This document shows, piece by piece, positions 2,622-16,461 of a stretch of 64,000 nt of DNA. Under the pieces are notes generated by a model that worked only from the letters and a program-made list of their open reading frames with translations, was not told the origin of the DNA and did not search any database. Position 1 is the first letter of the stretch. Every line of letters starts with the position of its first letter. The stretch is taken from NCBI GenBank assembly GCA_965197745.1, contig CBDANS010000007.1, forward strand, positions 288,001 to 352,000. Reading direction: 5' to 3'. Made by a program: the position numbers and the translations under genes. This stretch comes from Opitutales bacterium. GTDB lineage: Bacteria > Verrucomicrobiota > Verrucomicrobiia > Opitutales > PNEW01.

Positions 2622-3410
2622 TTAATTTTTTCTCAACCAGCAAAACGAGTCTAGGAGAAAGAGAGAAATGCGTTGCTGGAATTTGAGTTTCATATAGGCA
2701 GTACCATCTTTAGGGGTGTAGCCAAGAAGCTTACAAGTTTGCCTGATATCGTATTGGCATTGGTAGTGACGTGAGAATCCATGAGCTATCGCAAAATCTA
2801 TCCCGTCAACTTCAATGCACTGTTCAATTAAATGAGCAGAATCTCCTAGCGTAATCCAATTTGCTCGCTTTATCGGATCATTTTCAGGCGCTTTTTCTAC
2901 AATACCACCGAAGCGAATACAGAGAGAGGAAAGACGATGCATATGAAAGAAACTTTGTGCTAGAGCCTCGCCAAAAACCTTGCATGAGCCATATACATAC
3001 AACGGGTTTGGGGCAGATTTCGGGGTAACTCTCATTCCATCGGGATACCCATTTATCGCGTTCACGCTGCTCGCATAAATAACGCGGCGACATCCCTGAT
3101 CCGCAGCTGCCCGGTATATGTTATATACCCCTATGACATTACATGCTAATAAGGTATCGTAAAAATCAGCTTTTTGCGATGGATCCGCGGCCAAATGGAC
3201 CACCGTGTCCATTCCCTTACATGCCATCTGCATATCCTCAAGTTTGCTGATATCCAGCTTTTGGAAATCCGTATTCTTCTTTAATGGATAATCTAAATTG
3301 CGAATATCCGTTAATCGAAGATCGTAACGATCCTGCCATTGGCACCCCAAATAACCGCCTAGATTTCCCGCGGCGCCTGTTATTAAAACTTTTCTCTTGG
3401 ATTCAGACAT
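2622..3410 (-). CDS. NAD-dependent epimerase/dehydratase (uronate dehydrogenase-like extended SDR)
   Basis: LITGAAGNLG Rossmann motif, VVHLAA, YASS and YGSCK (YxxxK). Start placed at MSESKRK (3410). Confidence 0.85.
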   Translation of the reverse strand: MSESKRKVLITGAAGNLGGYLGCQWQDRYDLRLTDIRNLDYPLKKNTDFQKLDISKLEDMQMACKGMDTVVHLAADPSQKADFYDTLLACNVIGVYNIYRAAADQGCRRVIYASSVNAINGYPDGMRVTPKSAPNPLYVYGSCKVFGEALAQSFFHMHRLSSLCIRFGGIVEKAPENDPIKRANWITLGDSAHLIEQCIEVDGIDFAIAHGFSRHYQCQYDIRQTCKLLGYTPKDGTAYMKLKFQQRISLFLLDSFCWLRKN

Positions 3411-3477
3411 TAAAGATCTCAAAAAGGGGATTATCACAGGTTGTGATGTAAAACCCCGCGATATTTACAATCTTAAT

Positions 3478-4659
3478 TTAATGTTCAGCACTTTGGCTAC
3501 CAGTGTGCTGTGCATGACTGGTCGTAAAACGCATCTTTATTCGCTCCCATAATTTAGCAACCACAAAGAGCGGTATTTGCCATGGGTTTTTTAAACCCCA
3601 GATATCCTGAAGGTAACCGGGAAATCCAAAAATCTTTTGTCGTAAACTGCTATTTTTTACCAGTCTTAAATAATTAAAACAGTGCCCGGGAAATACACCT
3701 AAGATACCAATTGGTTTATCTTTAAGGCGATATTCCATGCGTTCGATTAAGGGATGGGGAACATCATCGAGGGTTTCCAGAACCCACGGGGGCACCGAGA
3801 CGTTAAAGTTCATTTTTATATAATTTAAGGTGTCCCTTAGGGGTAGGGTAAGCCAACGATTAGTGGCTTGCCTCACGAGGCGATCCCAGTCTACTTCAGC
3901 AGATGATGTTCTGAAAATAATCATGGCATCAGCTATCCAGCGAATGGGCGGAGTCAGATTCCACCTGGCCCCATGAACACAAACATGAAAAAGCAGATCG
4001 GTGGCATTTTCACATCGAGTGGGTACACCCACAAAATCTGTTTCGACGGATCCAGACCAGACAGGATCGTCAGCGTGAGGTTGTCGGCCCTGGGGAAAAA
4101 GATACCAGTGCACGTCGATTGCCTGTCCGCGTTCATTGACAAATGATCCCGCATTGCTGCGACTGAGTATCTTGTCGATGGTCATCCATTCATCTTTTAA
4201 GTGCCACCTATTATCTAATAACAGATTGATAGCCTCTTTGGCTTTCGAGACTGGGATTAATATATCGATATCGTCCATGGGACGTAAGCCGTGATCACGA
4301 TAGTGCATCAGGACCAACGCTCCTCCTTTTAAAATCATGGTCTCAATCCCTTTTTGCTGCAGGGCTTCTAGAAGCGGAGCGGTTTGATGAAAGAGTAACT
4401 GATTTTGGGCCCAATGATAGCGGTAGACTCCTTTCATCTTTTTCATCATAGGATCATCAATTCCTGCTTGGGTCAGGTTGTGATGAAGAAGGGGCAACAA
4501 CCGATGGGAACCGGGATCTAATTTTTCAATGTCAATTTTTGATCTCCACGAGTACCAGGCGCTTTCCACTTCATCCTTGCTCAGTAGGCAGGCCCGAAGC
4601 ATTAACTCCTGTTCCTGGTTCGGCCAGAAACCCTTCGCCTTAATCTTTTTCCCCCTCAC
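3478..4659 (-). CDS. Uncharacterised nucleotidyltransferase (NTP_transf_5-type)
   Basis: LKGGAL...RPMDDIDILI and IDVHW motifs of the family found in lasso/PqqD-associated clusters. Confidence 0.85.
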   Translation of the reverse strand: MRGKKIKAKGFWPNQEQELMLRACLLSKDEVESAWYSWRSKIDIEKLDPGSHRLLPLLHHNLTQAGIDDPMMKKMKGVYRYHWAQNQLLFHQTAPLLEALQQKGIETMILKGGALVLMHYRDHGLRPMDDIDILIPVSKAKEAINLLLDNRWHLKDEWMTIDKILSRSNAGSFVNERGQAIDVHWYLFPQGRQPHADDPVWSGSVETDFVGVPTRCENATDLLFHVCVHGARWNLTPPIRWIADAMIIFRTSSAEVDWDRLVRQATNRWLTLPLRDTLNYIKMNFNVSVPPWVLETLDDVPHPLIERMEYRLKDKPIGILGVFPGHCFNYLRLVKNSSLRQKIFGFPGYLQDIWGLKNPWQIPLFVVAKLWERIKMRFTTSHAQHTGSQSAEH

Positions 4660-5357
4660 TCTGAAGCTCTACCTTGCTCTTTTCGCCTGCGATCGAGAGA
4701 TGCTTTTATAATATTAGTAAACTCGGTAATTGAATCGCGTTTGTGCAGCATCGTATTAGACGTATGCAATCTTCGGCGCATGACCAAATCGGGTATTACA
4801 TTTATCTTGAGATCAAGTTCTTTGGCACGTAGGTACCAGCTCATAAATTCTCCAACCCCTAATTGCGTTTCAAATAATCCTACGCGAAAAAAAGCATCTC
4901 GTTTTACTAACATCGTGCCACAATGAATGCCCGCGATCACCTCATCAGGACAGTATAATTTTTTTTTCGCCTCACCATCTAAATCCGGGCTTATAAACTG
5001 TTCCAGATGTCCAAATGCAATATCCAAAGTGAGATCAGCGTTGAAGGCCTCAATTTGCAAAGATAGCTTATCTTTTGTCCATAAATCATCACCATCAAGA
5101 AATGCTAATAAATTTCCGTTTGCCTTTTCCACCCCAAGATTGCGAGCCGCGGCGATTCCTGCGTTAGGTTGAAAATAATAGTTTAGAGCATCCCCATAAG
5201 ATTGGGCAATTTTTGCGCTATCGTCAGACGAACCGTCATCAATGACAATAGTTTCATACGGTTGAGAGGTTTGATTGAGTACGCTTTCTATTGATTCCGC
5301 GAAGTAATTTTCGCCGTTGTAGATGGGAATGATAACGCTAACCCGAGGCTTATCCAT
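4656..5357 (-). CDS. Glycosyltransferase family 2
   Basis: VSVIIPIYNGE, IDDGSSD, ARNLG, FLDGDD. Start placed at MDKPRVS (5357); 4-nt overlap with the nucleotidyltransferase start. Confidence 0.9.
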   Translation of the reverse strand: MDKPRVSVIIPIYNGENYFAESIESVLNQTSQPYETIVIDDGSSDDSAKIAQSYGDALNYYFQPNAGIAAARNLGVEKANGNLLAFLDGDDLWTKDKLSLQIEAFNADLTLDIAFGHLEQFISPDLDGEAKKKLYCPDEVIAGIHCGTMLVKRDAFFRVGLFETQLGVGEFMSWYLRAKELDLKINVIPDLVMRRRLHTSNTMLHKRDSITEFTNIIKASLDRRRKEQGRASE

Positions 5358-6138
5358 TATGATGAGGGCCTTTTCCTGCCTCTTTTTGACGATCTTTGCT
5401 CGTGGCGACAAGAAAGTTGGATAGACTGGGTAGGGATGTCGCTTTACCCTTACTTTGTTTGCGGCGACGGTCTAATGATTTTTTTATCACTTCCATCAAA
5501 TTTAATTCCTGCCAGTGGTTTATTTTTTGAGTGGTATTATTCTCGTGTCTTCGATAGAGCAGTGAAACCTGGGGCACGGTGATGATCTTTACGCCACTTT
5601 CTCTGAAGCGAAAAAACCAATCTACATCTTCGCTCAAACGAAGGTCTGAATTAAATAAACCAATATTTTCAAAAACTGATTTTTTAACGATATAACTGCC
5701 CATGAGGGGAGCGAGAATGGGTTCACCCAGATTCTCAAACTCTATTTTTTCATCGTCGATCTGAACTTCGCGCACAAGCTGAGTTTGTCCCATTACTAAA
5801 TCGACTTCGGAGTCGTCAAAATAGGGGAGTTGCCGTGATAAATTATTGGATGCCCACATGTCGTCCGCATCCAGAAATCCAATAATTTTACTTCGTGAAA
5901 TACTAAACCCGTGATTGCGTGCAGCCGCGGCCCCCTGGTTCTCCTGGTAAATATATTTAATGCCTTCACTAAATGACCTGGCAATCTCTCCGGTTTTATC
6001 GGTCGAACCATCATCGACAATAATAATTTCCAGGGAAGAGTGTTTTTGTTGAAAGATACTATTCAGGGCGGTAGGGAGTACCCTTTCTCCATTATAAACG
6101 GGTATTATAACACTGATCGATGGCGGCTCAACGGACAT
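5350..6138 (-). CDS. Glycosyltransferase family 2
   Basis: ISVIIPVYNGE, VDDGSTD, FLDADD, SEDVD. Confidence 0.9.
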   Translation of the reverse strand: MSVEPPSISVIIPVYNGERVLPTALNSIFQQKHSSLEIIIVDDGSTDKTGEIARSFSEGIKYIYQENQGAAAARNHGFSISRSKIIGFLDADDMWASNNLSRQLPYFDDSEVDLVMGQTQLVREVQIDDEKIEFENLGEPILAPLMGSYIVKKSVFENIGLFNSDLRLSEDVDWFFRFRESGVKIITVPQVSLLYRRHENNTTQKINHWQELNLMEVIKKSLDRRRKQSKGKATSLPSLSNFLVATSKDRQKEAGKGPHHNG

Positions 6139-7237
6139 TAATATTTTCAGTAAGGAGTTGTGTAATCACTTCTGGTATGGTGGATAGGTTTGTGCCCAGT
6201 TCCAGTTGATAAGATTGAACTTTTGTAACCAGATTTGCCATCGTGCGAAAAGCCTGTTCACCGGCGCCGGGTAATTGAAAAATCGTGCTCGGCGCCAGTT
6301 CTCTTAATGCCATGGCTGGAGTCGTCTTAGAAAATTTGGATGCGGATAACCCCGTGATTCGTGGTAAAAGTATCGCTTTTATCGGCAGATTGGAAGTGAA
6401 TTGTCGTTCGTAGTTATCATATAAATACAATAGCGCTTTCTCATCCAATGCTCCATCGTCATTAATAATGTTCTGCTTAAGATGAGTGAATCTTTGTAAA
6501 TTGTCTGGTTTTAGTTTTGCCACACAATAAAGACTAAATACCTCGGGAGTTTTTTCAGTGCTGATAAGAGAATAGTCATCACCAAGATATAATAATCCAG
6601 CATCGAGGCATGCCAAGGAAGAGGACGATTTACCCGAACCACCTTTACCTACCAACAAAACTGCACCTTCTCGTGTTCCTACCGCCGCAGCATGCATGAT
6701 CTGTCGTTGATGGTTACTTAGCCATAAGTGAAGTATGGTACGAAGGGGATAAGCCATTTCATAATAGGCAATACGCGATGCATCCGCGGCCCAGAAAATT
6801 GCAACATTTTCCTTCATATCAATAATACTAAGGATGTTACTATCAATTTGAAATACCGTATGAATCCTGGCGTTGTTGTTATATTTAATTTCTTCTCGAG
6901 GTGAGTAATCGTCGCTATGCCAGGGAGGGGTGGGCATGGAAATGCCTGATGATTTACTGTCCCACAAGTAAATAGTAAGCGATTTTTTCGGGGTGGGAGC
7001 TGTCCTCAAGTGGGAGAGCGCCAGGGTGGTTGGGGTAACCAAGGTTCGACCCGCAAACTGTAGTAAAATATTGTATCCTCCCACCTCATAATATTGGTCA
7101 ATAACCTCTCCTTCATTTTCTTTCGCACGATTAAAATTTGCGCGTGCGATTTTGAAATATTCTAACGGTCTAAAGTTGCTTTTGTCCTCAGCCCCGTTTT
7201 CAGTTTTCAATGGGGACATCTTCTCGGAATTCGGCAT
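6128..7237 (-). CDS. HPr kinase-related Ser/Thr kinase (P-loop)
   Basis: HAAAV...GKGGSGKSS (Walker A) followed by LGDDY, the HPrK/PEPCK-type signature. Confidence 0.85.
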   Translation of the reverse strand: MPNSEKMSPLKTENGAEDKSNFRPLEYFKIARANFNRAKENEGEVIDQYYEVGGYNILLQFAGRTLVTPTTLALSHLRTAPTPKKSLTIYLWDSKSSGISMPTPPWHSDDYSPREEIKYNNNARIHTVFQIDSNILSIIDMKENVAIFWAADASRIAYYEMAYPLRTILHLWLSNHQRQIMHAAAVGTREGAVLLVGKGGSGKSSSSLACLDAGLLYLGDDYSLISTEKTPEVFSLYCVAKLKPDNLQRFTHLKQNIINDDGALDEKALLYLYDNYERQFTSNLPIKAILLPRITGLSASKFSKTTPAMALRELAPSTIFQLPGAGEQAFRTMANLVTKVQSYQLELGTNLSTIPEVITQLLTENINVR

Positions 7238-7267: not shown

Positions 7268-7723
7268 TCACTTTATTTCCTTAGGATTAGTTCGAGGCCA
7301 TCCCATTTCGTCAACTTCGTGGATGGGGTCGATGAGCAGGAGCTCCTGCATGTCCGTAAATTTTTGTAATGTTGGTCTTTCAAATGGAAGTTTATCAATA
7401 TTTTTATCATCTGTTGAATTTTCATCGGGTGAAGATTGATCGTCATTATTAATCTCTGAAGATGTAACTAACGAATCATTTTTAAGTTCATCAACGAATC
7501 GGGTAACTTCATCATTAATATTAATCCCATTGCTTAAATATTCTTTATTCAAAGTATTGACGATGTAATCTACGGTGGTCGTATTTTCCAGGAGGTTCCA
7601 TATGCGAACGCCGACATTGAGCAAACTGTAATAATCTCCAGTATTAAGATTGATAATGACAACTTCACCTTCGATATTCTGGTGAACAATGTTGGGCTGA
7701 TTAATTTGAAATTGTGGGGGCAT
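7268..7723 (-). CDS. PqqD-family RiPP recognition element (RRE) with C-terminal peptide extension
   Basis: Residues 1-88 fit the PqqD/RRE pattern (IEGEVVIINLNTGDYYSLLNVGVRIWNLL...FVDELKNDSLV), followed by an acidic linker and FERPTLQKFTDMQELLLIDPIHEVDEMGWP. Confidence 0.85.
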   Translation of the reverse strand: MPPQFQINQPNIVHQNIEGEVVIINLNTGDYYSLLNVGVRIWNLLENTTTVDYIVNTLNKEYLSNGININDEVTRFVDELKNDSLVTSSEINNDDQSSPDENSTDDKNIDKLPFERPTLQKFTDMQELLLIDPIHEVDEMGWPRTNPKEIK

Positions 7724-7907
7724 TGTTGAATTAATTTCTAGAACAGAAAATAAATAAATAATATATTGAATTATGAATTAGTTTGGTTGCCCATAATATA
7801 TGATCTCCTTACTTAATCAATTTATAAATCTTATCCATTATATAAAAATGATAACCTGCTTTCCCTGTAGTCATGTCATCATATAAAATACCTCTATCTT
7901 GATCAAG

Positions 7908-9107
7908 ATGGCAGAGATGAAGGTCATACGTAAAATCATGCGTGATCCGCTGATTTTACCTGTTTACCTTCCTTCATTAATGGGTGCATTCAGCAGCGGT
8001 CTGCTCGTTCCGATTATCCCGCTTTATATTGTAAGCTTTGATGTTTCATACGGCCTGGTCGGATTGGCTCTTGCCAGTCAAAGTATTGGGACGATGTTGT
8101 GCGATGTTCCGAGCGGGTTGCTCTTGAGAAAATTTGGGGTAAAACGTTCAATGCTTGTGGGGATTGCCTTTATCACGCTTTCAACCTTCGCTCTTTATTG
8201 GTCCACCAACATTATCGAGGTTATAGCCCTACGCCTTTCTTCCGGATTGGGAATGGCGCTATATGGTATCGCCAGACATAACTATATAGCCGAAACTATT
8301 GTTATTAACTACCGCGGTCGGGCCAGTGCCCTCTTTGGTGGCGTTAATCGGGTGGGAAAGTTTACGGGGCCTGCGATAGGTGGATTTGTGGCTGCTGCTT
8401 TCGGTTTGCAAACCGTCTTTATTCTTTTCAGTGCTGTTTTTATATTTATATTTATCATTGTCACAGTCGTCGTAGACGAAAAATACTCAGCTTCCATTAA
8501 ATCCACCACGCTGCATGGCAATAGCATATACAAAACGCTGAAATCAGAGTACCGCATTCTCCTAACAGCCGGGCTTGGGCAGCTTTTTGCACAGATGATT
8601 CGGGCGGGAGTGATTGTGGTTATTCCTCTTTATGCTGCTGAAGTAATCGGTCTTAAAGTAGAGGTTATCGGGCTCATCGTCAGTATTGCCGCAGCGGTAG
8701 ACATGTCTTTATTTTATCCTGCCGGATTGCTTATGGACCGCCTCGGGAGAAAATATGCGATCATTCCTTGTTTTTTTATCCAGGCCGTTGGATTGGGACT
8801 ATTGCCGTTCACCGATAGCTATAACACGCTTTTAATAGTCGCTGTCTTAATCAGTATTGGAAACGGTCTTGGCTCGGGAACAATGCTCACATTGGGAACA
8901 GATTTCGCTCCAGAAAATTCACGCGCTGAGTTTCTCAGCCTCTGGCGATTTATTCATTCTGTGGGACAAACCGGTGCTCCTGTGCTTATCGGTACCGTCG
9001 CGGCCATTATTACGATGCAGGCCGCAGTGTGGTCAATATCCGCCACCGGTCTTCTCGCGGTATTTATATTTGCTTTTCATGTCCCGGAGACCCTTAAAAG
9101 AAAATAA
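7908..9107 (+). CDS. MFS transporter
   Basis: About 12 hydrophobic segments; motif A-like GLLLRKFGVKR and GLLMDRLGRK. Confidence 0.9.
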   Translation: MAEMKVIRKIMRDPLILPVYLPSLMGAFSSGLLVPIIPLYIVSFDVSYGLVGLALASQSIGTMLCDVPSGLLLRKFGVKRSMLVGIAFITLSTFALYWSTNIIEVIALRLSSGLGMALYGIARHNYIAETIVINYRGRASALFGGVNRVGKFTGPAIGGFVAAAFGLQTVFILFSAVFIFIFIIVTVVVDEKYSASIKSTTLHGNSIYKTLKSEYRILLTAGLGQLFAQMIRAGVIVVIPLYAAEVIGLKVEVIGLIVSIAAAVDMSLFYPAGLLMDRLGRKYAIIPCFFIQAVGLGLLPFTDSYNTLLIVAVLISIGNGLGSGTMLTLGTDFAPENSRAEFLSLWRFIHSVGQTGAPVLIGTVAAIITMQAAVWSISATGLLAVFIFAFHVPETLKRK

Positions 9108-9163: not shown

Positions 9164-9547
9164 TCATTCTTCTAAGAATTTTTCGTAATCGGGTGCAGAA
9201 AGAAGGGACTCGTTTTCGTCTTCATCAGAAATTTTAATTTTAATCAACCATCCCCCTTCATAAGGTTCATCATTTGCCAGCTCGGGTGCGCTTTCCAGTT
9301 CGCCGTTAACCTCTTGAATATCACCGCTGACCGGCATATAAAGGTCAGAAGCGGCTTTAACCGATTCAATTACGCCAAAAGTGTCCCCTTCTTTAAAAGA
9401 GCTTCCAGGTGAGGGTAATTCGATAAAAGTTATATCACCGAGACTTTCCTGAGCAAAATCGGTGATGCCAATAATACCTATACCATTCACAATTTTTATC
9501 CATTCGTGTTCCTGGGTATACTTAAGTTCTGTGGGTATCTTACTCAT
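9164..9547 (-). CDS. gcvH: Glycine cleavage system H protein
   Basis: LKYTQEHEW, GITDFAQESLGD and the lipoyl-Lys motif IESVKAASD. Start placed at MSKIP (9547). Confidence 0.97.
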   Translation of the reverse strand: MSKIPTELKYTQEHEWIKIVNGIGIIGITDFAQESLGDITFIELPSPGSSFKEGDTFGVIESVKAASDLYMPVSGDIQEVNGELESAPELANDEPYEGGWLIKIKISDEDENESLLSAPDYEKFLEE

Positions 9548-9575
9548 AAATTTTAAAAAAAACTGGTGTGAAATA

Positions 9576-10676
9576 TCAGGTCTTATCTCCTTTATGCAAT
9601 GGAGGTATTGCGCGTTCAAGTTTTATCTGATTGCCGCGCAAGTCGACGTAGAGTTTATCCGCATTGATGTCACCGGTGTTGATCAGAGCGGAACCTATGG
9701 GTTGATTTATTATCGGTGACATTGTGCCAGAGACGACCTCACCAACTTGCTCACCCTCAAAGTAGACGGGCGATCCACGGCGCGCGATGCGCCGATCATT
9801 TAACTTAAAATAGATTAATTGTCTTCGAGAACCGTTAGCTTTTTCTTTTTCAAGAGCACTGCGGCCGATAAAATTATCGGCTTTTGAAAATTTAACGGTC
9901 CAACCGAGACCGGCCTCCAGGGGTGAAATAGTATCACTTATTTCATGACCATAAAGCGACAATCCCGCTTCCAGGCGCAGGCTGTCACGCGCGCCGAGTC
10001 CGCATAACTGGAGTCCGTAACTATTTCCCCTTTTATCTAAGGCGCGGGCAACCCTATCAGCATCCTCCGTTTGGCAATAAATTTCGTATCCGTTTTCTCC
10101 CGTGTACCCGGTACGGCTTATCATTACTTCGGCCCCATCAACTTTATCTTCGACTAAACGAAAACGCTTTAGTCTGCTAAGGTCAAAGGTGGTGAATGTA
10201 TTTAATAATGATTCGGCCTTGGGCCCTTGTAAAGCGAGGAGCGCGTATTGAGATGAGACATCATTTACTTCGCATTGATAATTTTCGGCATGCTTAAGCA
10301 TCCATCTTACATCTTTTTCCGTGTTGTCCGCATTAACACAGAGAAAAAAAACATCATATTTGAAACGGTAGATGATGACATCATCGACGACGCTACCGTT
10401 TTCATTGCATAACATGCTGTAAAGGGCTTTACCGTCTATGAGTGATGTAAGATCATTGGTGGCAATATAATTTAAATATTTTTCGGCGTCGACGCCTGAG
10501 ACCTTTACTTCACCCATATGGCTTACATCGAAAAGACCAAGGGATTGGCGAACGGCTCGGTGTTCTTCGAGAATACTTGTGTACTGCACCGGCATTTCCC
10601 AGCCCGCGAAGGGAACAAAACGTGCCCCATTTTCCTCGTGAAATAAGTGCAGTGGCGATTTTTTCAGTTCAGACAT
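9576..10676 (-). CDS. gcvT: Glycine cleavage system aminomethyltransferase T
   Basis: [37 protein letters not shown]. Confidence 0.97.
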
Positions 10677-11160
10677 CTCTTACTCTGTAAGTTCGGTAAA
10701 TTATTGGAAGGGGTGGCACTTTTAAATGTTTCGGATATTCTGAGGTCAAGGATTAAGACAGTATTGCTGTATGATAAATGACATTAGCCGATGTACTGAA
10801 AGTAATTCTTGAAATGTACAGTTATTAATACATATTAAAAGGATTGAAGATAGCCGAATTGATGAAAGTTAACGGATACCGACATCGTTCTTATGACAGG
10901 ATCGGGTTACGGCAAAATAACTCCGGGAGTCGTGATTGCTCATTAATTTCGCAACTAAGAGGAATTGCTGCTATCGTTTAGTCCCGTTAATACCCCTGGG
11001 GTGATTATAAGCGGCATTTGCCCACTGCTATAATCACTATACCCGATTAATGAATACCGTATGGCCAATTTCACCTTAACATAGCATTACAGGAGATTCT
11101 GAATCGCCGACAACGATGTGGGCGCATTTATGGCGATCACACAGTGCGGCGCAAAAATAT

Positions 11161-12261
11161 ATGACCCCATTGATAGTAGCCATAACCTTTACTCTCGGAG
11201 TTTCCGCGTTCTGTTCTTTAATGGAAGCTTTTATTCTCAGTACTACCACCGCGGAAATTGAAAGCCTCAAGCAAAGTTATCCCAAGCGAGGGCACCTTCT
11301 CGATAAATACAAGAATGACATTGAGGAGACAACATCGGCCATTCTTACCCTCAATACCATTGCCAATACCCTGGGTGCCACCCTCGTCGGCGTCCTCGCT
11401 GGTAAACTATTTGATAAGTTCTGGGTAGGTGTTATTTCCGGGGGACTGGTCCTGGGAATACTCATTTTTTCTGAAGTTATTCCGAAAAATCTGGGGGTAA
11501 TTTACCGGAAGCAATTGCAAAAGAATCTTGTTTACCCCTTGCGTATGGTGAGATGGGTAATGATACCGTTCTCTTTCTTATGTAAGTTTTCGGTGCGTCT
11601 TATTATTCGAAAAAAGCCTACCATGAGTACTACGGAGCAAGAGCGTGAAATTTTACTGCTAGCTGAAAAAAGCGCTAAGGAGGGTTCCCTCTCTCACAAT
11701 GAGAGTAATATGATCCATAATGCCCTTAGCCTTGATGACATCCTGATCAGCGACATTATGACGCCGCGTACCGTGGTAACCGCAATGGATCAGAATCTTA
11801 CAATCGAGAATGTCTTTCGAAACCATAAAAATATACCCTTTGCGCGCATCCCCGTTTACGATGAGACGATCGATAATATTGTAGGCGTTGTTCGCCGCCG
11901 TGATCTTCTTCAGGCGCGTGCGGATGACCGTGATAACGTGACCGTTGCCGAACTGAAAGGGGAGGGCATCTTTGTCCCTGAAACCGCAAACGCGGCTGAC
12001 GCGCTGCAGCTGTTTCTCAAAAATCACCAGCAGCTGGGGGTGGTCGTCGATGAGTTTGGATCAACCGCGGGTGTTGTTGCGATGGAAGACATCGTGGAGC
12101 ATATTCTCGGGCGTGAAATTTATGAAGAATCGGATATCGCGGTTGATATGCGGGCATTGGCACGCAGTAAAGCGCGAAATAATGAGCAAAATACACCCGA
12201 AGACAAAGCACGTCTTCCTCGTAGAACTAATCCGGCGACTATTCGTCGTCCGGCATCTTAA
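11161..12261 (+). CDS. CNNM/CorB-type (DUF21 + CBS pair) membrane protein
   Basis: SAFCSLMEA, SEVIPK, IMTPR, RIPVY, VVDEFG...EDIVE. Confidence 0.92.
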   Translation: MTPLIVAITFTLGVSAFCSLMEAFILSTTTAEIESLKQSYPKRGHLLDKYKNDIEETTSAILTLNTIANTLGATLVGVLAGKLFDKFWVGVISGGLVLGILIFSEVIPKNLGVIYRKQLQKNLVYPLRMVRWVMIPFSFLCKFSVRLIIRKKPTMSTTEQEREILLLAEKSAKEGSLSHNESNMIHNALSLDDILISDIMTPRTVVTAMDQNLTIENVFRNHKNIPFARIPVYDETIDNIVGVVRRRDLLQARADDRDNVTVAELKGEGIFVPETANAADALQLFLKNHQQLGVVVDEFGSTAGVVAMEDIVEHILGREIYEESDIAVDMRALARSKARNNEQNTPEDKARLPRRTNPATIRRPAS

Positions 12262-12285: not shown

Positions 12286-13128
12286 GTGCCAGCGACAAAT
12301 CCAGGTGGAGCGCCGGATTACTGGGTGCATGATTTGGACCCTTTCCTATTGCGGTTCAGTGAAAATTTTGGACTGCGCTGGTATGGATTCTCCTACATTC
12401 TGGGATTTGTCGCCGCCTATTTTCTACTGCGGCTATACTATCGTAACAACCGGTCGCCCTGGAATGCCGACCAGTCTCTCAATGCGATATACGCTATAGC
12501 TATCGGTATCATTATCGGAGGTCGGGTCGGCTACGTCTTACTCTATGATTTTCAGAATTTCGTTCATAATCCTTTATCATTATTCAAAGTCTGGGAAGGG
12601 GGTATGGCCAGTCATGGAGGATTTATCGGCCTGGCGCTTGCTCTTATATGGTTGGCGCGTAATACTGAGATCTCATTTCTCAAAGCAAGTGATATAATCG
12701 TTACCCTGGCCCCTCCAGGTCTGTTCTTCGGAAGGATAGCTAATTTTATTAACGGTGAACTCTGGGGTAAAATAACCGATGTATCCTGGGCCGTCAAATT
12801 TCCCGCGAGTGCGCCACCTGGAACGCCGATTGAACTCATCTCCCCACGGCATCCTTCCCAATTATACGAAGCCGCACTCGAAGGTTTGTTCCTTTTAATC
12901 TACACGCAAGTTCGTTTCTGGTGGGGCAAGTCCGACAAAACGCATGACGGTCAAATCTGTGGTGAATTTTTACTTCTTTACGCCATCGTTCGGATCATCG
13001 GTGAACAGTTCCGCGAACCCGATGCCGGCCTCATCCTCGGTCTCAGCCGTGGTGTGTTTTATTCTCTCTTTCTCGCCCTGGCGGGAATTGGATTTATCCT
13101 TGTCGCCCGCAGAAGAACAAGAAGTTAA
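12286..13128 (+). CDS. lgt: Prolipoprotein diacylglyceryl transferase
   Basis: LRWYG, GGRVGY, WEGGMASHGG, GRIANFINGELWG, HPSQLYE. Confidence 0.97.
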   Translation: MPATNPGGAPDYWVHDLDPFLLRFSENFGLRWYGFSYILGFVAAYFLLRLYYRNNRSPWNADQSLNAIYAIAIGIIIGGRVGYVLLYDFQNFVHNPLSLFKVWEGGMASHGGFIGLALALIWLARNTEISFLKASDIIVTLAPPGLFFGRIANFINGELWGKITDVSWAVKFPASAPPGTPIELISPRHPSQLYEAALEGLFLLIYTQVRFWWGKSDKTHDGQICGEFLLLYAIVRIIGEQFREPDAGLILGLSRGVFYSLFLALAGIGFILVARRRTRS

Positions 13129-13463: not shown

Positions 13464-14914
13464 TCAGCATCTGCGGCGGAAACGCCAGAAGATTAAGAGA
13501 CAACCCATTCCCATCAGGGCCCAGGTGGAGGGTTCGGGGACAACCGTAAGGGAGAGTGTCCCAAATTCATCGTCATAGAAAGGCTGGAAAAAATTGCCGG
13601 GATTTAATGAGGATCCACCCACATCCACTGTGATGTTGTCGAATGCACCCGACCTCGTTCCGTCCCAGGATATGGCAAGAATATTGTCACCAATCAGGGG
13701 CACGTAATCTTCGAGAAAAACATTAAGCGTGCCGCTTGAAAATGTCAGGTCACCGGATCCGGTATCATCGAGAATGCGTAAAAAATTAGCGCCCGGGCCC
13801 TCACCTGAATCGAAAACAGTGATATCTAAAAAACTACCGGCATTGAAGGTAACACTTCCATCCACTCTTAAATTAAAGCTTTGATCGACAGTGATTTGTC
13901 CTGAGTTCATGATATCGCTTATGATGAGACCTCCTCCTTCTAATTCCCCCAGTGATCCGACCGTGATACTGTCGGCAATTAAAGTGCTTTGATCATATAC
14001 TCCCAAAAATCCCTCTCCAAGGTTACCCACATAAATATCATTTATCATTAAAGTTGATCCACCACTGGCTGAGGCATCATCTACTACAAGCTCGGAAGCG
14101 ACACTACTCGCCTGGTTGCCTATAATTACAGACGCATCGATAGTAGGAGTAGCGGTATTATGGACGTGGAAGGTTCCCTGCCCGGCATCTCCGACAATGA
14201 TCGAACCCTCTCTGATGGCTGGCTTACCTGGGTCCCCATATGAAGCTGGGAACCTGCTCCATCAATGGCAAACTTGCCGTCTGACCCCGAGTTTACGCCC
14301 AGGGTTAAAGTACTCGTATTGATCACTTCAACCAAGCCTCCATCGATTATATCGACAAGCCCGAATTCGTTAATACCGATGTTCAAATCGTTGGCGGTAA
14401 AAATGGAACCGGTATTGTAAACATTAACAATACTCGGACCATCTACGCCGATATCAGCAGTATTTGTGATATTTAAAATGCCCGTTGATGACACACCGTC
14501 TCCAATATCGAGTTGGCTGTAAGTCGAATTGAAGTTACTTGAGGTGTCCAGGCTGCTTGCGTTTACCGTTCCATTCTTAATTAGCAGGGTAGCAGTATCC
14601 TCGTCATTGTGAGCGAGGGACAGGGAATTATTTAAGGTCAATGTATTAGTCGATAAATCAAAAGTGACAAAATCATTTTCAACTTCGAGACTGTGGACCG
14701 TGGGACTGGAACTGAAGGAAACGGTATAGGATGAACCAAGATCAAATTCTCCGACAACACTGGTATTGGGAACACCAAAATTCCAATTGGATCCGTTGCT
14801 GAAATCGCCACCTGAGGTGTTAGTCCAATTAGTATTTGAAACGGATGCTTGCGTTGAAAACCAACCCAAGCATAGAAAAACAGGTAGGAACGCAATTACT
14901 TTCAGCTTCAACAT
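13464..14914 (-). pseudogene. PEP-CTERM surface protein A, frameshifted (+2 nt)
   Basis: ORF 14126-14914 carries the signal peptide and WTNTSGGDFSNGSNW N-terminus; ORF 13464-14048 ends VPEPSTWALMGMGCLLIFWRFRRRC. An extra GA in TCAGAGAGGGT (14208-14213) relative to paralogue B's TCAGAGGGA explains the split. Confidence 0.85.
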
Positions 14915-15178: not shown

Positions 15179-16461
15179 TCAGCTTCTGCGGCGGAAACGC
15201 CAGAAGATTAAGAGACAACCCATTCCCATCAGGGCCCAGGTGGAGGGTTCGGGGACAACCGTAAGGGAGAGTGCCCCAAATTCATCGTCATAGAAAGGTG
15301 AAAAAAAATGTCCGGGTGACAATGAAAGCCCTTCAAAATCTACTGTGATGTCCCCGAAGGTTCCCGTTCTTAATCCTTCCCAGAAGAGGACATCGAAACT
15401 ATCGCCAATTTCAGGTACCACATCGGAGATAAATAGATTGAGCGTTCCACTCGAAAAAGTTAAGTCACCGCTGCCATTAGAATCTATAATATCTAAGTTG
15501 TTAGAGCTGAGTCCCTCATCTTGAAAGATAACAATATTCAAAACACTGCCAGCTTTAAAGTCGACGCTTCCATCAATGGTCAGTCCAAAAAACATACTCA
15601 TTGGGGTGATTTCGCCAAATATGTCAACGTCGCTTCTGATCGTGCTATCACCTTCAATACTACCTAGAGATCCAACCGTGATACTATCAGCGATTAGCAG
15701 GCTACTATCAAATACCCCCAGGAGACCCTCACCCAGGTTACCAACCGTAATATCATTTACCGTTAATGTGGATCCACCGCTGAATGTTTGATCATCCACA
15801 ACAAGCTCGGAAGCGACGCTGCTCGCCTGGTTGCCGATGCATCGATGGTAGGGGTTGCGGTATTGTGCACATGAAAAGTTCCCCGCCCGGCATCTCCGAC
15901 AATGATTGATCCCTCTGAACCTCCACCAACCTGGGTGCCCATCAGCAGTTGAGAGCCTGTGCCGTCAATAGCCAACTTGCCATCTGACCCGGTATTCAAG
16001 CCGAGAGTTACGGTGAGAGGACTGGAAATTTCCACCGTTGCGCCGTTAAAAATATCAACTAAAGCCGTCCCTGAAACCCCGGAATTCAAGTTGCTGGTTT
16101 GGAGGGTGCCATTTATAAGCGTAAGATTCGCAATATCCGAAGCGGTTAAGCCGAGATCTGTGTCATTGGTTACGGTCAGGGTGTTGTCATCGAAAAGATC
16201 AAAAATAACAGAGGTGTCAATGATATCTAAATTGTTCACGGTGTGATCCGACATGATTGACACCACCGGGGTAGAGGTCGGTTCAACATTAAAAACGACA
16301 TTAACGGAACTGGTAGGAACGACAGCATTAGACCAATTACTGCCCGTATCAAAATCACCTCCAGATGCGCTGATCCAAGTCCCATTCGGTAAGGATGCCA
16401 AACCGTTATTCAAGGACAAGCTGAGAAGAACAGAGAGTGCTACTAAGAATTTCAGCTTCAT
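15179..16461 (-). pseudogene. PEP-CTERM surface protein B, frameshifted (-10 nt)
   Basis: ORFs 15763-16461 and 15179-15799. At about 15836-15840, B reads GAT GCATC GGC AAC where paralogue A reads GAT GCG TCT GTA ATT ATA GGC AAC. Ends VPEPSTW...WRFRRRS. Confidence 0.85.

What the first reader, a model, noticed from the sequence alone, without database searches (positions are those of the whole stretch)
7268..7450. RRE appears fused to its own leader-core peptide
Seen: after the ~88-aa RRE comes an acidic Ser/Asp/Asn linker (SSEINNDDQSSPDENSTDDK), then FERPTLQKFTDM-QELLLIDPIHEVDEMGWP. Known: lasso leaders bind RREs through an aromatic-x-x-P-x-L motif, which FERPTL matches. Inference: the substrate is carried in cis, so the tail is a self-docking precursor (core around LLLIDPIHEVDEMGWP) or an autoinhibitory leader mimic. 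This would explain the missing stand-alone precursor.
Basis: partly seen in the sequence, partly recalled or inferred. Interest (0 to 1): 0.75.

Follow-up and report, generated by a model that had tools for sequence, protein, structure and literature searches.

The report
Peptide-binding domain fused to its peptide
A small bacterial protein carries both a peptide-recognition domain and, on a flexible tether, the very peptide motif that such domains normally bind in a separate substrate, followed by an extremely conserved tail that is predicted to plug into the neighbouring kinase; this single-chain design is widespread but undescribed.

Summary
ORF 7271-7723 (-), 151 aa, has four parts:
- a PqqD/RRE domain (res 9-87);
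- a variable acidic linker;
- an F-x-x-P-x-L motif;
- a 23-residue tail ending in GWP.

In 148 homologues the tail is the best conserved part (3.5 bits/column; RRE 2.1, linker 0.6).

The family is large and spans many phyla. 452 species genomes encode a relative, and in 80 of 80 fetched loci the RRE and tail lie in one frame. It heads a conserved cassette: HprK-like kinase (72/80 loci), GT2 glycosyltransferases (72/80) and NTP_transf_5 (64/80). I found no lasso cyclase, lasso B2 protease or leader peptidase in the cassettes, and no conserved small ORF.

AlphaFold2 places the FxxPxL segment with pLDDT 96. The closest solved folds are lasso B1 RREs bound to leader peptides. A controlled complex prediction puts the RRE sheet and the tail on the kinase (0.86 against 0.01 for the best control). 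Natural RRE-tail-kinase fusions exist.

Best reading (0.5): a self-presenting, cis-tethered acceptor for phosphorylation and glycosylation. It would be a single-chain relative of the linear polyphosphorylated peptide (LPP) system described in 2026. The main rival (0.3) is that the tail is only a kinase-docking adaptor. The lasso frame and a released core are not supported. Verdict: a new variant of a known kind. An earlier first-reader note of this scan flagged the same operon; nothing was found on other DNA.

The parts
7268..7723 (-). Whole gene: 151-aa RRE-linker-leader-like-tail protein plus stop codon (7268-7270)
   Evidence: ORF list; 77 homologues of the same length and architecture; 452 species genomes.
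7463..7699 (-). PqqD / RiPP recognition element domain (res 9-87; strands 4-7, 12-17, 20-25, 31-35; helices 37-45, 51-61, 69-82; strand 86-89)
   Evidence: PF05402 at 44.3 bits. AlphaFold2 pLDDT 93-98. Foldseek top hits are TbiB1-leader complexes 5v1v/5v1u, 31-33% identity, rmsd 1.7 A, target TM 0.81-0.87. phmmer to TbiB1 E 5.2e-8 and to PbaB1 (9x90) E 1.8e-4.
7388..7462 (-). Variable acidic Ser/Asp/Asn linker (res 88-112)
   Evidence: 0.64 bits/column; length 17-42 residues across 148 homologues; pLDDT 61-68.
7358..7387 (-). Leader-like motif PFERPTLQKF (res 113-122), i.e. F-x-x-P-x-L plus the strand that follows
   Evidence: F 130/148, P 145/148, L 120/148. pLDDT 96 for res 111-120 and a strand at 118-122. 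It matches the [Y/W]xxPx[L/V/I/F/A] RRE-binding motif (PMC13381572 sections 6 and 8; PMC10368454). A P[FY]xxPx-hydrophobic motif also follows the extra RRE copies in the tandem proteins P0079, P0126 and P0192.
7295..7357 (-). Ultra-conserved tail core TDMQELLLIDPIHEVDEMGWP (res 123-143)
   Evidence: 3.52 bits/column over res 121-143. P133, G141, W142 and P143 are invariant; D124, M125, D132, H135 and V137 are at least 95% conserved. Helix at 125-131; the rest has low confidence in the monomer. In the complex model res 122, 124-125, 128-131, 133-134, 137, 140-143 and 145 touch the kinase.
7271..7294 (-). Short variable C-terminal extension (res 144-151)
   Evidence: 0.89 bits/column; 3-27 residues long. 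The last residue is Ser in only 13/148, so there is no paeninodin-type C-terminal Ser.
6128..7237 (-). HprK-like P-loop kinase (369 aa), 30 nt downstream of the RRE-tail gene
   Evidence: TIGR04352 at 41 bits, below its cut-off of 200. The profile aligns with the HprK/P active site of 1jb1/1kkl at E 1.4e-4. H182, P-loop G197-S204 and D220 are invariant, D221 at least 90%. Found next to the RRE-tail gene in 72/80 loci. Fused to RRE-tail in P0104, P0133 and P0148; P0148 is 35% identical over kinase res 23-362, E 2e-56.
5350..6138 (-). GT2 glycosyltransferase a (262 aa)
   Evidence: PF00535 at 126.5 bits; a relative in 72/80 loci.
4656..5411 (-). GT2 glycosyltransferase b (251 aa)
   Evidence: PF00535 at 107.6 bits; a relative in 72/80 loci. 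The GT2 family has 163 members in 69 loci.
3478..4659 (-). NTP_transf_5 nucleotidyltransferase-fold protein (393 aa), of the PsmN/LppN type by annotation
   Evidence: PF14907 at 138.1 bits; D-x-D at res 130-132; present in 64/80 loci, often in two copies.
2622..3437 (-). NAD-dependent sugar epimerase/dehydrogenase (271 aa), last gene of the co-directional run
   Evidence: PF01370 at 64.8 bits; Azf-like at 122.8 bits, below its cut-off of 400. A relative in only 7/80 loci, so it is an accessory gene.

Best explanation
The protein is a lasso-B1/LppB-type RiPP recognition element that carries its own ligand.

Proposed mechanism:
- After a floppy 17-42-residue linker, the F-x-x-P-x-L motif folds back into the RRE's own leader cleft. 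The aromatic, Pro and Leu side chains fill the two hydrophobic pockets, and the following residues add a strand to beta4.
- This fixes the next 23 residues, the most conserved part of the protein, in position for the HprK-like kinase encoded 30 nt downstream. The RRE sheet sits on the kinase's conserved C-terminal helices. The tail lies on the kinase N-terminal domain beside the P-loop.
- I infer that the tail is the acceptor. It would be phosphorylated, with T/S123 the only conserved hydroxyl. The phosphate would then be hexosylated and extended by the NTP_transf_5 protein and the GT2 pair, as PsmK and PsmN do on pseudomycoidin.
- Because no leader peptidase travels with the cassette, the modified tail probably stays on its RRE carrier.

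In effect this is a single-chain ('cis') version of the linear polyphosphorylated peptide (LPP) system.

Shown here, by computation only: the architecture, the conservation, the synteny, the natural fusions and the predicted docking. Inferred: every chemical step and the site of modification.
For: - **Conservation.** Tail 3.52, FxxPxL 2.2, RRE 2.09 and linker 0.64 bits/column in 148 sequences. All seven invariant columns of the 48-sequence alignment lie in the tail.
- **Always one chain.** A single tblastn segment runs from residue 10 or earlier to residue 143 or later in 80 of 80 loci.
- **Cis docking.** Res 111-120 reach pLDDT 96 with a strand at 118-122, although the linker scores 61-68. 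The best structural matches are RRE-leader complexes.
- **The cleft is maintained.** I mapped the PbaB1 pocket residues (PMC13381572 section 8) through the HMMER alignment. They fall on Y32, L34, V37, I41, L58, Y62, F76, L80 and L85. All but V37 stay hydrophobic or aromatic across the family; V37 is often Thr, Ser or Ala.
- **Partner.** The complex model with the kinase scores 0.86 against 0.01 for the best of 3 controls. In the tool's calibration that mark was reached by 116 of 157 solved complexes and by 2 of 215 mismatched pairs. The runs agree in at least 87% of contacts and the partner's pLDDT is at least 78. These counts hold only roughly because my own alignments were used.
- **Interface is conserved.** Kinase residues L311, P316, S317 and Q321 at the interface are near-invariant, and P-loop K198 touches the partner.
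- **Gene fusions.** P0104, P0133 and P0148 join RRE-tail, two further RREs and this kinase in one protein.
- **Synteny.** Kinase 72/80, GT2 72/80 and NTP_transf_5 64/80 loci.
- **No other substrate found.** 1947 intergenic small ORFs give no cluster spanning more than 3 loci. The genome has one tail copy.
[quoted passage not shown] LppB is insoluble without its leader (PMC13381572 sections 6-8). PsmK phosphorylates a Ser, and PsmN is required to add hexoses to the phosphate (PMC6993621 passages).
Against: - No modification has been observed; everything structural is a prediction.
- T/S123 is Thr in 107/148 sequences, and LppK did not phosphorylate an S3T variant.
- Position 123 is D, E or K in 14/148 sequences and another residue in 4/148. 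The T > S > D > E pattern also fits a helix N-cap for the predicted helix 125-131.
- In the complex model the tail mostly touches the kinase N-domain. Only one active-site-adjacent residue (K198) is listed, and residue 123 itself is not named.
- Conservation at nearly every position is unusual for a RiPP core.
- In the kinase fusions the tail is internal.
- L041 and L052 have long flanks and keep the tail, yet show no kinase within 10 kb downstream.
Confidence: 0.5

Rival explanations
1. Adaptor, not substrate. The RRE-tail protein is a permanent regulatory or scaffolding subunit of the kinase. The cis FxxPxL only plugs and stabilises an RRE that is unstable when empty. The conserved tail is a clamp on the kinase N-domain. 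The molecule that is phosphorylated and glycosylated is something else, such as a glycan, a lipid-linked intermediate or an unlinked protein.
For: - The tail contacts mainly kinase res 100-155 rather than the catalytic residues.
- Conservation is extreme at every position, and gene fusions with the kinase exist.
- The residue pattern at position 123 is compatible with a helix N-cap.
- Thr was not accepted by LppK.
- LppB is insoluble without its leader.
- The cassettes sit among polysaccharide genes: GT4, Wzm/Wzt, a flippase and sulfotransferases.
Against: - An interface with one partner rarely fixes charged and hydrophobic positions alike over 23 residues.
- HprK-like kinases of this clade act on RRE-bound peptides in every characterised case.
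- P-loop K198 is at the interface.
- No alternative substrate gene is conserved.
Confidence: 0.3
2. Autoinhibitory leader mimic. The cis motif keeps the RRE closed until a separate, unlinked precursor with a stronger [Y/W]xxPxL leader displaces it.
For: - The flexible tether varies in length (17-42 residues).
- The first position is mostly Phe (130/148). Phe lacks the hydroxyl or indole group that fixes Tyr or Trp leaders by hydrogen bonds, so binding could be weaker and displaceable.
Against: - No conserved small ORF was found in 80 loci.
- The genome has no second tail-like sequence.
- This reading does not explain why the 23 residues after the motif are the best conserved part, nor why they are predicted to bind the kinase.
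- BLAST-short clustering could miss precursors with variable cores.
Confidence: 0.08
3. Classical fused RiPP precursor. A protease cuts near L130/I131 and a modified core, LDPIHEVDExGWP..., is released and exported.
For: - With lasso numbering (Y-17, P-14, L-12) the junction would fall after L130, with L129 at position -2. This resembles the Ile/Val(-2) leaders of PMC10368454.
- An MsbA-like ABC exporter is present in 19 of 80 loci.
Against: - No peptidase family appeared among the 19 accessory families or the 56 further cassette ORFs scanned.
- No B2 domain was found in the genome.
- There is no exporter in this operon.
- The tail is internal in the fusion proteins.
- The 'core' is near-invariant across phyla.
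Confidence: 0.07

Closest known systems
Linear polyphosphorylated peptide (LPP) system of Bacillota: LppA/LppB/LppK/LppN/LppS/LppD (Popov et al., Nat Commun 2026, PMC13381572; sections 6, 7, 8 and 12 read)
   Same: - An RRE of the lasso-B1 type works with an HprK-like kinase and an uncharacterised NTP transferase, without a macrolactam cyclase.
- An aromatic-x-x-P-x-(V/L) motif is bound in the RRE cleft.
- The cluster is embedded among glycosyltransferase and polysaccharide genes.
- An MsbA-like exporter is present in some loci (19/80 here).
- Distribution is patchy: 5 of 121 genomes of the order carry the tail.
   Different: - Here the RRE and the motif are one polypeptide in 80 of 80 loci.
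- What follows the motif is a near-invariant 23-residue tail, not a variable core with a phosphorylated Ser3.
- No SpI-like peptidase was found.
- Two GT2 genes belong to the conserved core.
- The family spans Verrucomicrobiota, Cyanobacteria, Acidobacteriota, Nitrospirota, Chloroflexota, Actinomycetota and others. LPPs are reported as restricted to Bacillota.
- The window RRE matches LppB (9x8z) only at E 0.035.
Phosphorylated and phosphoglycosylated lasso peptides: paeninodin, pseudomycoidin, Bsf (PMC8498205 passages, PMC6993621 passages, PMC10368454 section 25)
   Same: - B1-type RRE fold. TbiB1 is the best sequence and structure match.
- YxxPxL-type motif.
- An HprK-like kinase together with a PsmN-like NTP-transferase-fold protein.
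   Different: - No cyclase and no B2 protease.
- No separate precursor.
- No C-terminal or ring Ser target.
- NCBIfam lasso_PqqD_Bac scores 55.6, below its cut-off of 80.
HPr kinase/phosphorylase with HPr (1jb1, 1kkl, 1kkm)
   Same: The kinase core is shared: the conserved His, the G-x-x-G-x-G-K-S P-loop and the DD pair align. From recall, not tested here: HPr also docks on the C-terminal helices of HprK/P, as the RRE does in the model.
   Different: Only about 50 residues align (E 1.4e-4). The N-terminal domain differs. The partner is an RRE with a tethered tail, not HPr. TIGR00679 scores 15.8 bits against a cut-off of 240.
Conserved-core cofactor precursors with RRE chaperones (PqqA/PqqD, MftA/MftB with the GT2 enzyme MftF); recalled from general knowledge, apart from the weak MftF-model hits
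   Same: A peptide that is conserved across phyla is presented by a PqqD-family RRE. In mycofactocin a GT2 enzyme then glycosylates the product.
   Different: No radical SAM enzyme belongs to the core cassette (only a few loci have one). Peptide and RRE are fused. A kinase takes the place of the radical SAM enzyme.

Membership tests
PqqD / RiPP recognition element (PF05402) | Match to the family model above its curated cut-off | tested here: met
   44.3 bits against a cut-off of 23.4, res 20-86.
PqqD / RiPP recognition element (PF05402) | Winged helix-turn-helix fold with a three-stranded sheet and three helices, as in solved RRE-leader complexes | tested here: met
   AlphaFold2 pLDDT 93-98 over res 1-90. 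Foldseek hits 5v1v/5v1u with target TM 0.81-0.87 and rmsd 1.7-1.8 A; 6jx3 with TM 0.83.
PqqD / RiPP recognition element (PF05402) | Hydrophobic leader cleft between beta4 and helices alpha1-alpha3 | tested here: met
   The equivalents of PbaB1 Y39, L41, I44, I48, L65, Y69, F83, L87 and L92 are Y32, L34, V37, I41, L58, Y62, F76, L80 and L85. All but V37 stay hydrophobic or aromatic in 148 sequences. The mapping was done by hand from the alignment.
Lasso peptide biosynthetic system | B1 chaperone scoring above the NCBIfam lasso PqqD cut-off | tested here: not met
   NF033536 scores 55.6 against a cut-off of 80; NF033530 scores 26.2 against 70.
Lasso peptide biosynthetic system | B2 transglutaminase-like leader peptidase | tested here: not met
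   No PF13471 match in the whole genome, which is 92.28% complete. None among the cassette ORFs scanned.
Lasso peptide biosynthetic system | Asn-synthetase-like macrolactam cyclase in the cluster | tested here: not met
   No such family was found among the 9 window proteins, the 19 recurrent accessory families or the 56 further cassette ORFs. The genome was not searched for it outside the window.
Lasso peptide biosynthetic system | Separate short precursor with YxxPxL and a core | tested here: not met
   No conserved small ORF. The motif is inside the RRE protein in 80/80 loci.
LPP system (PMC13381572) | HprK-like kinase next to the RRE | tested here: met
   Window 6128-7237; present in 72/80 loci; catalytic residues intact. 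Orthology to LppK was not tested because no LppK sequence was at hand.
LPP system (PMC13381572) | Uncharacterised NTP transferase (LppN/PsmN type) | tested here: inconclusive
   PF14907 at 138 bits, present in 64/80 loci. That LppN and PsmN belong to PF14907 is my inference from their description as 'uncharacterized NTP transferase'.
LPP system (PMC13381572) | Discrete RRE plus a separate precursor with the motif YxxPxVLxHQxIxFETxxS and a phosphorylated Ser3 | tested here: not met
   RRE and motif are fused. The sequence after FxxPxL differs, and there is no conserved Ser.
LPP system (PMC13381572) | Archaeal-type signal peptidase I (LppS) | tested here: not met
   No peptidase family in the window operon or among the scanned accessory ORFs. 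17 of 73 small cassette ORFs and all minus-strand ORFs were not scanned.
LPP system (PMC13381572) | MsbA-like exporter | tested here: not met
   Absent from the window operon; an unrelated MFS gene lies divergently at 7899-9107. An ABC exporter with fused membrane and ATPase domains is present in 19 of 80 related loci.
HprK-related kinase A (TIGR04352) / HPr(Ser) kinase (TIGR00679) | Score above the curated cut-off | tested here: not met
   41 bits against 200, and 15.8 bits against 240. Only the P-loop core aligns.

The most novel reading that the evidence does not exclude
The RRE-tail protein is a protein-borne primer. The kinase and the NTP_transf_5 protein put a hexose-phosphate on the tethered tail, and the conserved GT2 pair, with the locus-specific GT4, GT10, sulfo- and methyltransferases, builds a phosphoglycan on it. 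The protein would then work like a bacterial 'glycogenin' for a peptide-anchored polysaccharide. A bolder variant is that the invariant Asp132-Pro133 is a reactive cleavage or ester-forming site that hands the chain to a glycan, as Asp-Pro motifs do in some eukaryotic and RTX proteins. That analogy is recalled and was not tested here.
Probability: 0.15. Interest if true: 0.85.

Novelty: new variant of a known kind. Interest (0 to 1): 0.7.

Why it matters
RREs are the general adaptors of RiPP biosynthesis, and in the systems I read about they bind a separate leader peptide. This family instead has receptor and ligand in one chain. It occurs in at least 452 species genomes and in at least 1906 clusters at 50% identity, across many phyla.

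- It offers a soluble, self-contained model of an RRE-leader complex.
- It gives a confident, testable model of how an RRE docks on an HprK-like kinase.
- It gives a defined candidate acceptor for the still unresolved chemistry of the PsmN/LppN nucleotidyltransferase-fold proteins.
- It extends the newly described LPP logic (RRE, kinase and NTP transferase without a cyclase) beyond Bacillota.
- It links that logic firmly to glycosyltransferases, which bears on the open question of what these phosphorylated peptides are for.
- RiPP genome-mining tools that look for a small precursor ORF would miss this family.

Tried and rejected
- **Stand-alone tail peptides.** A search for short proteins with the window tail's words found none. 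A profile of 66 tails found 186 short proteins among 212 candidates. Of the 18 I read, 10 still carry the end of RRE helix alpha3, so they are truncated gene calls. Of the 6 I looked up, 3 share a 90% cluster with full-length proteins of 153-359 aa. I therefore do not count them as split genes. P0254, P0229 and P0263 remain unresolved because their contigs could not be fetched.
- **Tail against other databases.** The tail profile found nothing in PDB sequences at E up to 10. The ESM Atlas gave no usable hit.
- **Small-ORF clustering.** No result.
- **HPr-rel-A system** (recalled TIGRFAM set). Rejected: the kinase scores 41 bits against a cut-off of 200, and no PqqD model of that system matched.
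- **C-terminal Ser target as in paeninodin.** Rejected: the last residue is Ser in 13/148 sequences.
- **Position 123 against kinase presence.** All 66 genomic tails have T or S, so the comparison was uninformative.
- **Literature.** Seven searches for a description of the fused family found none. They returned only the lasso and LPP papers cited.
Full report
**1. What is in the sequence**

The minus-strand ORF 7268-7723 encodes 151 residues. It has five parts:
- Res 9-87 form a PqqD/RRE domain. Pfam PF05402 scores 44.3 bits against a cut-off of 23.4. NCBIfam lasso_PqqD_Bac scores 55.6 bits, below its cut-off of 80.
- Res 88-112 are an acidic, Ser/Asn-rich linker.
- Res 113-122 read PFERPTLQKF.
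- Res 123-143 read TDMQELLLIDPIHEVDEMGWP.
- Eight further residues end the protein.

The stated coordinates cover res 92-151.

**2. The tail is conserved, and more so than the domain**

The word-indexed search returned 77 homologues from 81 candidates. Nearly all are 130-170 aa long and cover more than 92% of the query. The exhaustive representative search counted 4625 proteins at E up to 1e-3 and 1906 at E up to 1e-10. 149 of the 150 best align through residue 143 or beyond.

I aligned 48 of the 77 homologues. All seven invariant columns lie in the tail: D124, L129, P133, H135, G141, W142 and P143.

I then aligned 148 sequences, 21 and 127, leaving out the long fusion forms. Mean information per column, weighted by occupancy:

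| Region | Bits/column |
|---|---|
| RRE | 2.09 |
| Linker | 0.64 |
| FxxPxL segment | 2.2 |
| Res 121-143 | 3.52 |
| After GWP | 0.89 |

The linker varies from 17 to 42 residues. So the tail is not drifting sequence behind a domain. It is the part under the strongest constraint.

**3. Distribution and context**

A pattern scan of 185,579 species genomes found 534 stretches. 452 of them encode a relative, and the best 80 were fetched with flanks. They come from Verrucomicrobiota, Cyanobacteria, Acidobacteriota, Nitrospirota, Chloroflexota, Actinomycetota, Ignavibacteriota, Desulfobacterota and other phyla.

In all 80 loci one tblastn segment runs from residue 10 or earlier to residue 143 or later. 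RRE and tail are therefore always in one frame.

tblastn with the window's neighbouring proteins gave these counts out of 80 loci:

| Neighbour | Loci |
|---|---|
| HprK-like kinase | 72 |
| Each GT2 query | 72 |
| NTP_transf_5 | 64 |
| Epimerase | 7 |

The usual gene order is RRE-tail, kinase, GT2s and then NTP_transf_5, all on one strand. Several of the loci without a hit are short contigs.

Recurrent accessory families:
- an ABC exporter with fused membrane and ATPase domains (19 loci);
- an SDR (19 loci);
- GT4 enzymes (16 and 7 loci);
- an SGL lactonase-like protein (15 loci);
- sulfotransferases, a GlcNAc 2-epimerase and Wzm/Wzt;
- singly: GT10, GT61, GH26, methyltransferases, a flippase and, in a few loci, radical SAM/SPASM proteins.

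No lasso cyclase, B2 protease or signal peptidase appeared. Of the 73 further cassette ORFs I scanned 56; the 17 shortest were left out.

The window's own genome is 92.28% complete. It has one tail copy, no PF13471 B2 domain and only one other PqqD-domain match. Earlier notes of this scan place it in the Opitutales; I did not check this. Within its order the tail was found in 5 of 121 genomes searched, the window's own included, and in 0 of 3 genomes of its family. It is therefore an accessory, patchily distributed cassette.

**4. Does the motif dock in cis?**

- *Model confidence.* AlphaFold2 with the 148-row alignment gives mean pLDDT 84.3 and pTM 0.74. The RRE scores 93-98, the linker 61-68, res 111-120 score 96 and res 121-130 score 77. 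The last 20 residues score about 53. A strand is predicted at 118-122 and a helix at 125-131. A segment that follows a disordered linker and still reaches pLDDT 96 must be packed against the domain. I could not inspect coordinates.
- *Closest solved folds.* The best matches are TbiB1 bound to its leader peptides (5v1v and 5v1u; 31-33% identity; rmsd 1.7 A) and 6jx3. By sequence, TbiB1 matches at E 5.2e-8, PbaB1 (9x90) at 1.8e-4 and LppB (9x8z) at 0.035.
- *How such RREs bind leaders.* PMC13381572 section 8 describes it. The aromatic residue and the Pro of [Y/W]xxPx[L/V] sit in a first pocket and the Leu or Val in a second. A conserved Phe divides the two pockets, and the next residues extend the sheet along beta4.
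- *The cleft is maintained here.* Carrying the listed PbaB1 pocket residues through the HMMER alignment gives Y32, L34, V37, I41, L58, Y62, F76, L80 and L85 in the window protein. All but V37 stay hydrophobic or aromatic in the family. Examples are Y32 133/148 (plus F 14), F76 101/148 (plus L 37), L80 142/148 and L85 133/148; V37 is often Thr, Ser or Ala.
- *The motif travels with the RRE.* The tandem-RRE proteins P0079, P0126 and P0192 have a P[FY]xxPx-hydrophobic motif after each RRE copy, but the full tail only after the last copy. So the motif belongs with the RRE and the tail core is a separate module.
- *A rationale for fusion.* The same paper reports that LppB is insoluble without its leader.

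**5. Who receives the tail?**

The kinase keeps the HprK/P catalytic set. H182, P-loop G197-S204 and D220 are invariant in 52 sequences, and D221 is at least 90% conserved. This stretch aligns with the active site of 1jb1/1kkl.

A controlled complex prediction of kinase plus RRE-tail, both given as alignments, gave the following:
- The score is 0.86 (three runs: 0.85, 0.88, 0.86) against 0.01 for the best of three controls.
- In the tool's calibration that mark was reached by 116 of 157 solved complexes and by 2 of 215 mismatched pairs. The counts hold only roughly because my own alignments were used.
- The runs agree in at least 87% of contacts, and the partner's pLDDT is at least 78.
- RRE strand residues 10-33 sit on kinase res 306-338. 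L311, P316, S317 and Q321 there are near-invariant.
- Tail res 122, 124-125, 128-131, 133-134, 137, 140-143 and 145 touch kinase res 100-155 and P-loop K198.

This is the model's confidence, not a measurement. No like complex appeared in my sequence searches of PDB chains.

Independent support comes from natural fusions. P0104, P0133 and P0148 (781-849 aa) carry RRE plus full tail, two more RREs, and then a domain 35% identical to the window kinase over its res 23-362 (E 2e-56).

**6. Mechanism**

The characterised relatives give the chemistry:
- HprK-like kinases of lasso and LPP clusters phosphorylate a Ser of the RRE-bound precursor.
- PsmN, an uncharacterised NTP-transferase-fold protein, is required to add one or two hexoses onto that phosphate.
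- LPP clusters lack a cyclase and sit in glycosyltransferase-rich capsule loci.

By analogy I propose that the window protein presents its own tail to the kinase. The phosphate would then be hexosylated and extended by NTP_transf_5 and the GT2 pair. The product would stay on the carrier because no peptidase is present. T/S123 is the only conserved hydroxyl: 130/148 in alignment A2 and 66/66 in the genomic tails.

Several points count against this:
- Thr dominates at position 123, and LppK rejected S3T.
- 14/148 sequences have D, E or K at 123 and 4 have other residues. The T > S > D > E pattern also fits a helix N-cap.
- The listed tail contacts lie mostly on the kinase N-domain.

For these reasons I give the substrate reading 0.5 and the pure adaptor reading 0.3.

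**7. Comparison and novelty**

The closest described system is LPP (PMC13381572). That paper says LPPs and paeninodins are restricted to Bacillota, and its 'fused' and 'fusion' mentions all concern experimental tags.

The present family shares the RRE, the kinase and the NTP transferase. It differs in four ways:
- a single-chain RRE-motif-tail architecture;
- a near-invariant tail;
- a conserved GT2 pair;
- no peptidase found, and a spread across many phyla.

Seven literature searches found no description of it. Subscription journals are not covered by that library.

I classify it as a new variant of a known kind. It is not a lasso system, since the B2, cyclase and precursor tests all failed. 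It is also not a member of LPP as defined, since the discrete RRE, separate precursor and SpI peptidase tests failed. It most likely works like LPP.

**8. Limits**

All structural statements are predictions, and coordinates could not be inspected. The stand-alone tail question is not fully closed for three short proteins whose contigs could not be fetched. The supplementary data of the LPP paper were not opened. They could list LPP-like clusters outside the described clade.

Noticed in passing
P0104, P0133, P0148 (metagenomic proteins): These single proteins of 781-849 aa carry three PqqD/RRE repeats followed by the HprK-like kinase. Only the first repeat has the full conserved tail; the others keep a degenerate PF..-type motif.
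   Followed up: partly
L017, L026, L028, L035-L037, L045, L046, L049, L053, L058, L060, L065, L071, L076: Many loci, mostly cyanobacterial, carry two NTP_transf_5 paralogues. They are either adjacent to each other or one lies just upstream of the RRE-tail gene and one at the end of the cassette.
   Followed up: no
L024:16316-17395, L064:18687-19547, L077:6367-7443, L073:14826-15998, L022:1539-3044: Radical SAM proteins lie inside or next to some cassettes; three have SPASM domains and one is B12-binding. This hints at further tailoring in some lineages.
   Followed up: no
L018:12282-13202: A PEP mutase gene lies inside one cassette, suggesting phosphonate decoration in that lineage.
   Followed up: no
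L041 and L052 (Ignavibacteria): The RRE-tail gene is followed directly by the two GT2 genes, with no HprK-like kinase within 10 kb downstream. The tail is kept, but V137 is replaced by I or L.
   Followed up: partly
G000:C6:933244-933411 (+), locus L083: A second, weak PqqD-domain match (24.2 bits) lies inside a 753-aa open frame elsewhere in the genome. It was not examined.
   Followed up: no
window 13464-14048 (-), with neighbours 14126-14914, 15179-15799 and 15763-16461: A tandem set of PEP-CTERM-anchored proteins lies here (PF07589 at 28.1 bits for the first).
   Followed up: no
window 7899-9107 (+): An MFS transporter is transcribed divergently from the RRE-tail gene, 176 nt away (PF07690 at 154.9 bits). 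No relative of it was found in any of the 80 related loci, so it is probably not part of the cassette.
   Followed up: partly
window 9164-10676 (-), 11116-12261 (+), 12286-13128 (+): Housekeeping genes follow the cassette: glycine cleavage H and T proteins, a CNNM/CBS transporter-like protein and prolipoprotein diacylglyceryl transferase Lgt. They mark the upstream boundary of the cassette.
   Followed up: yes
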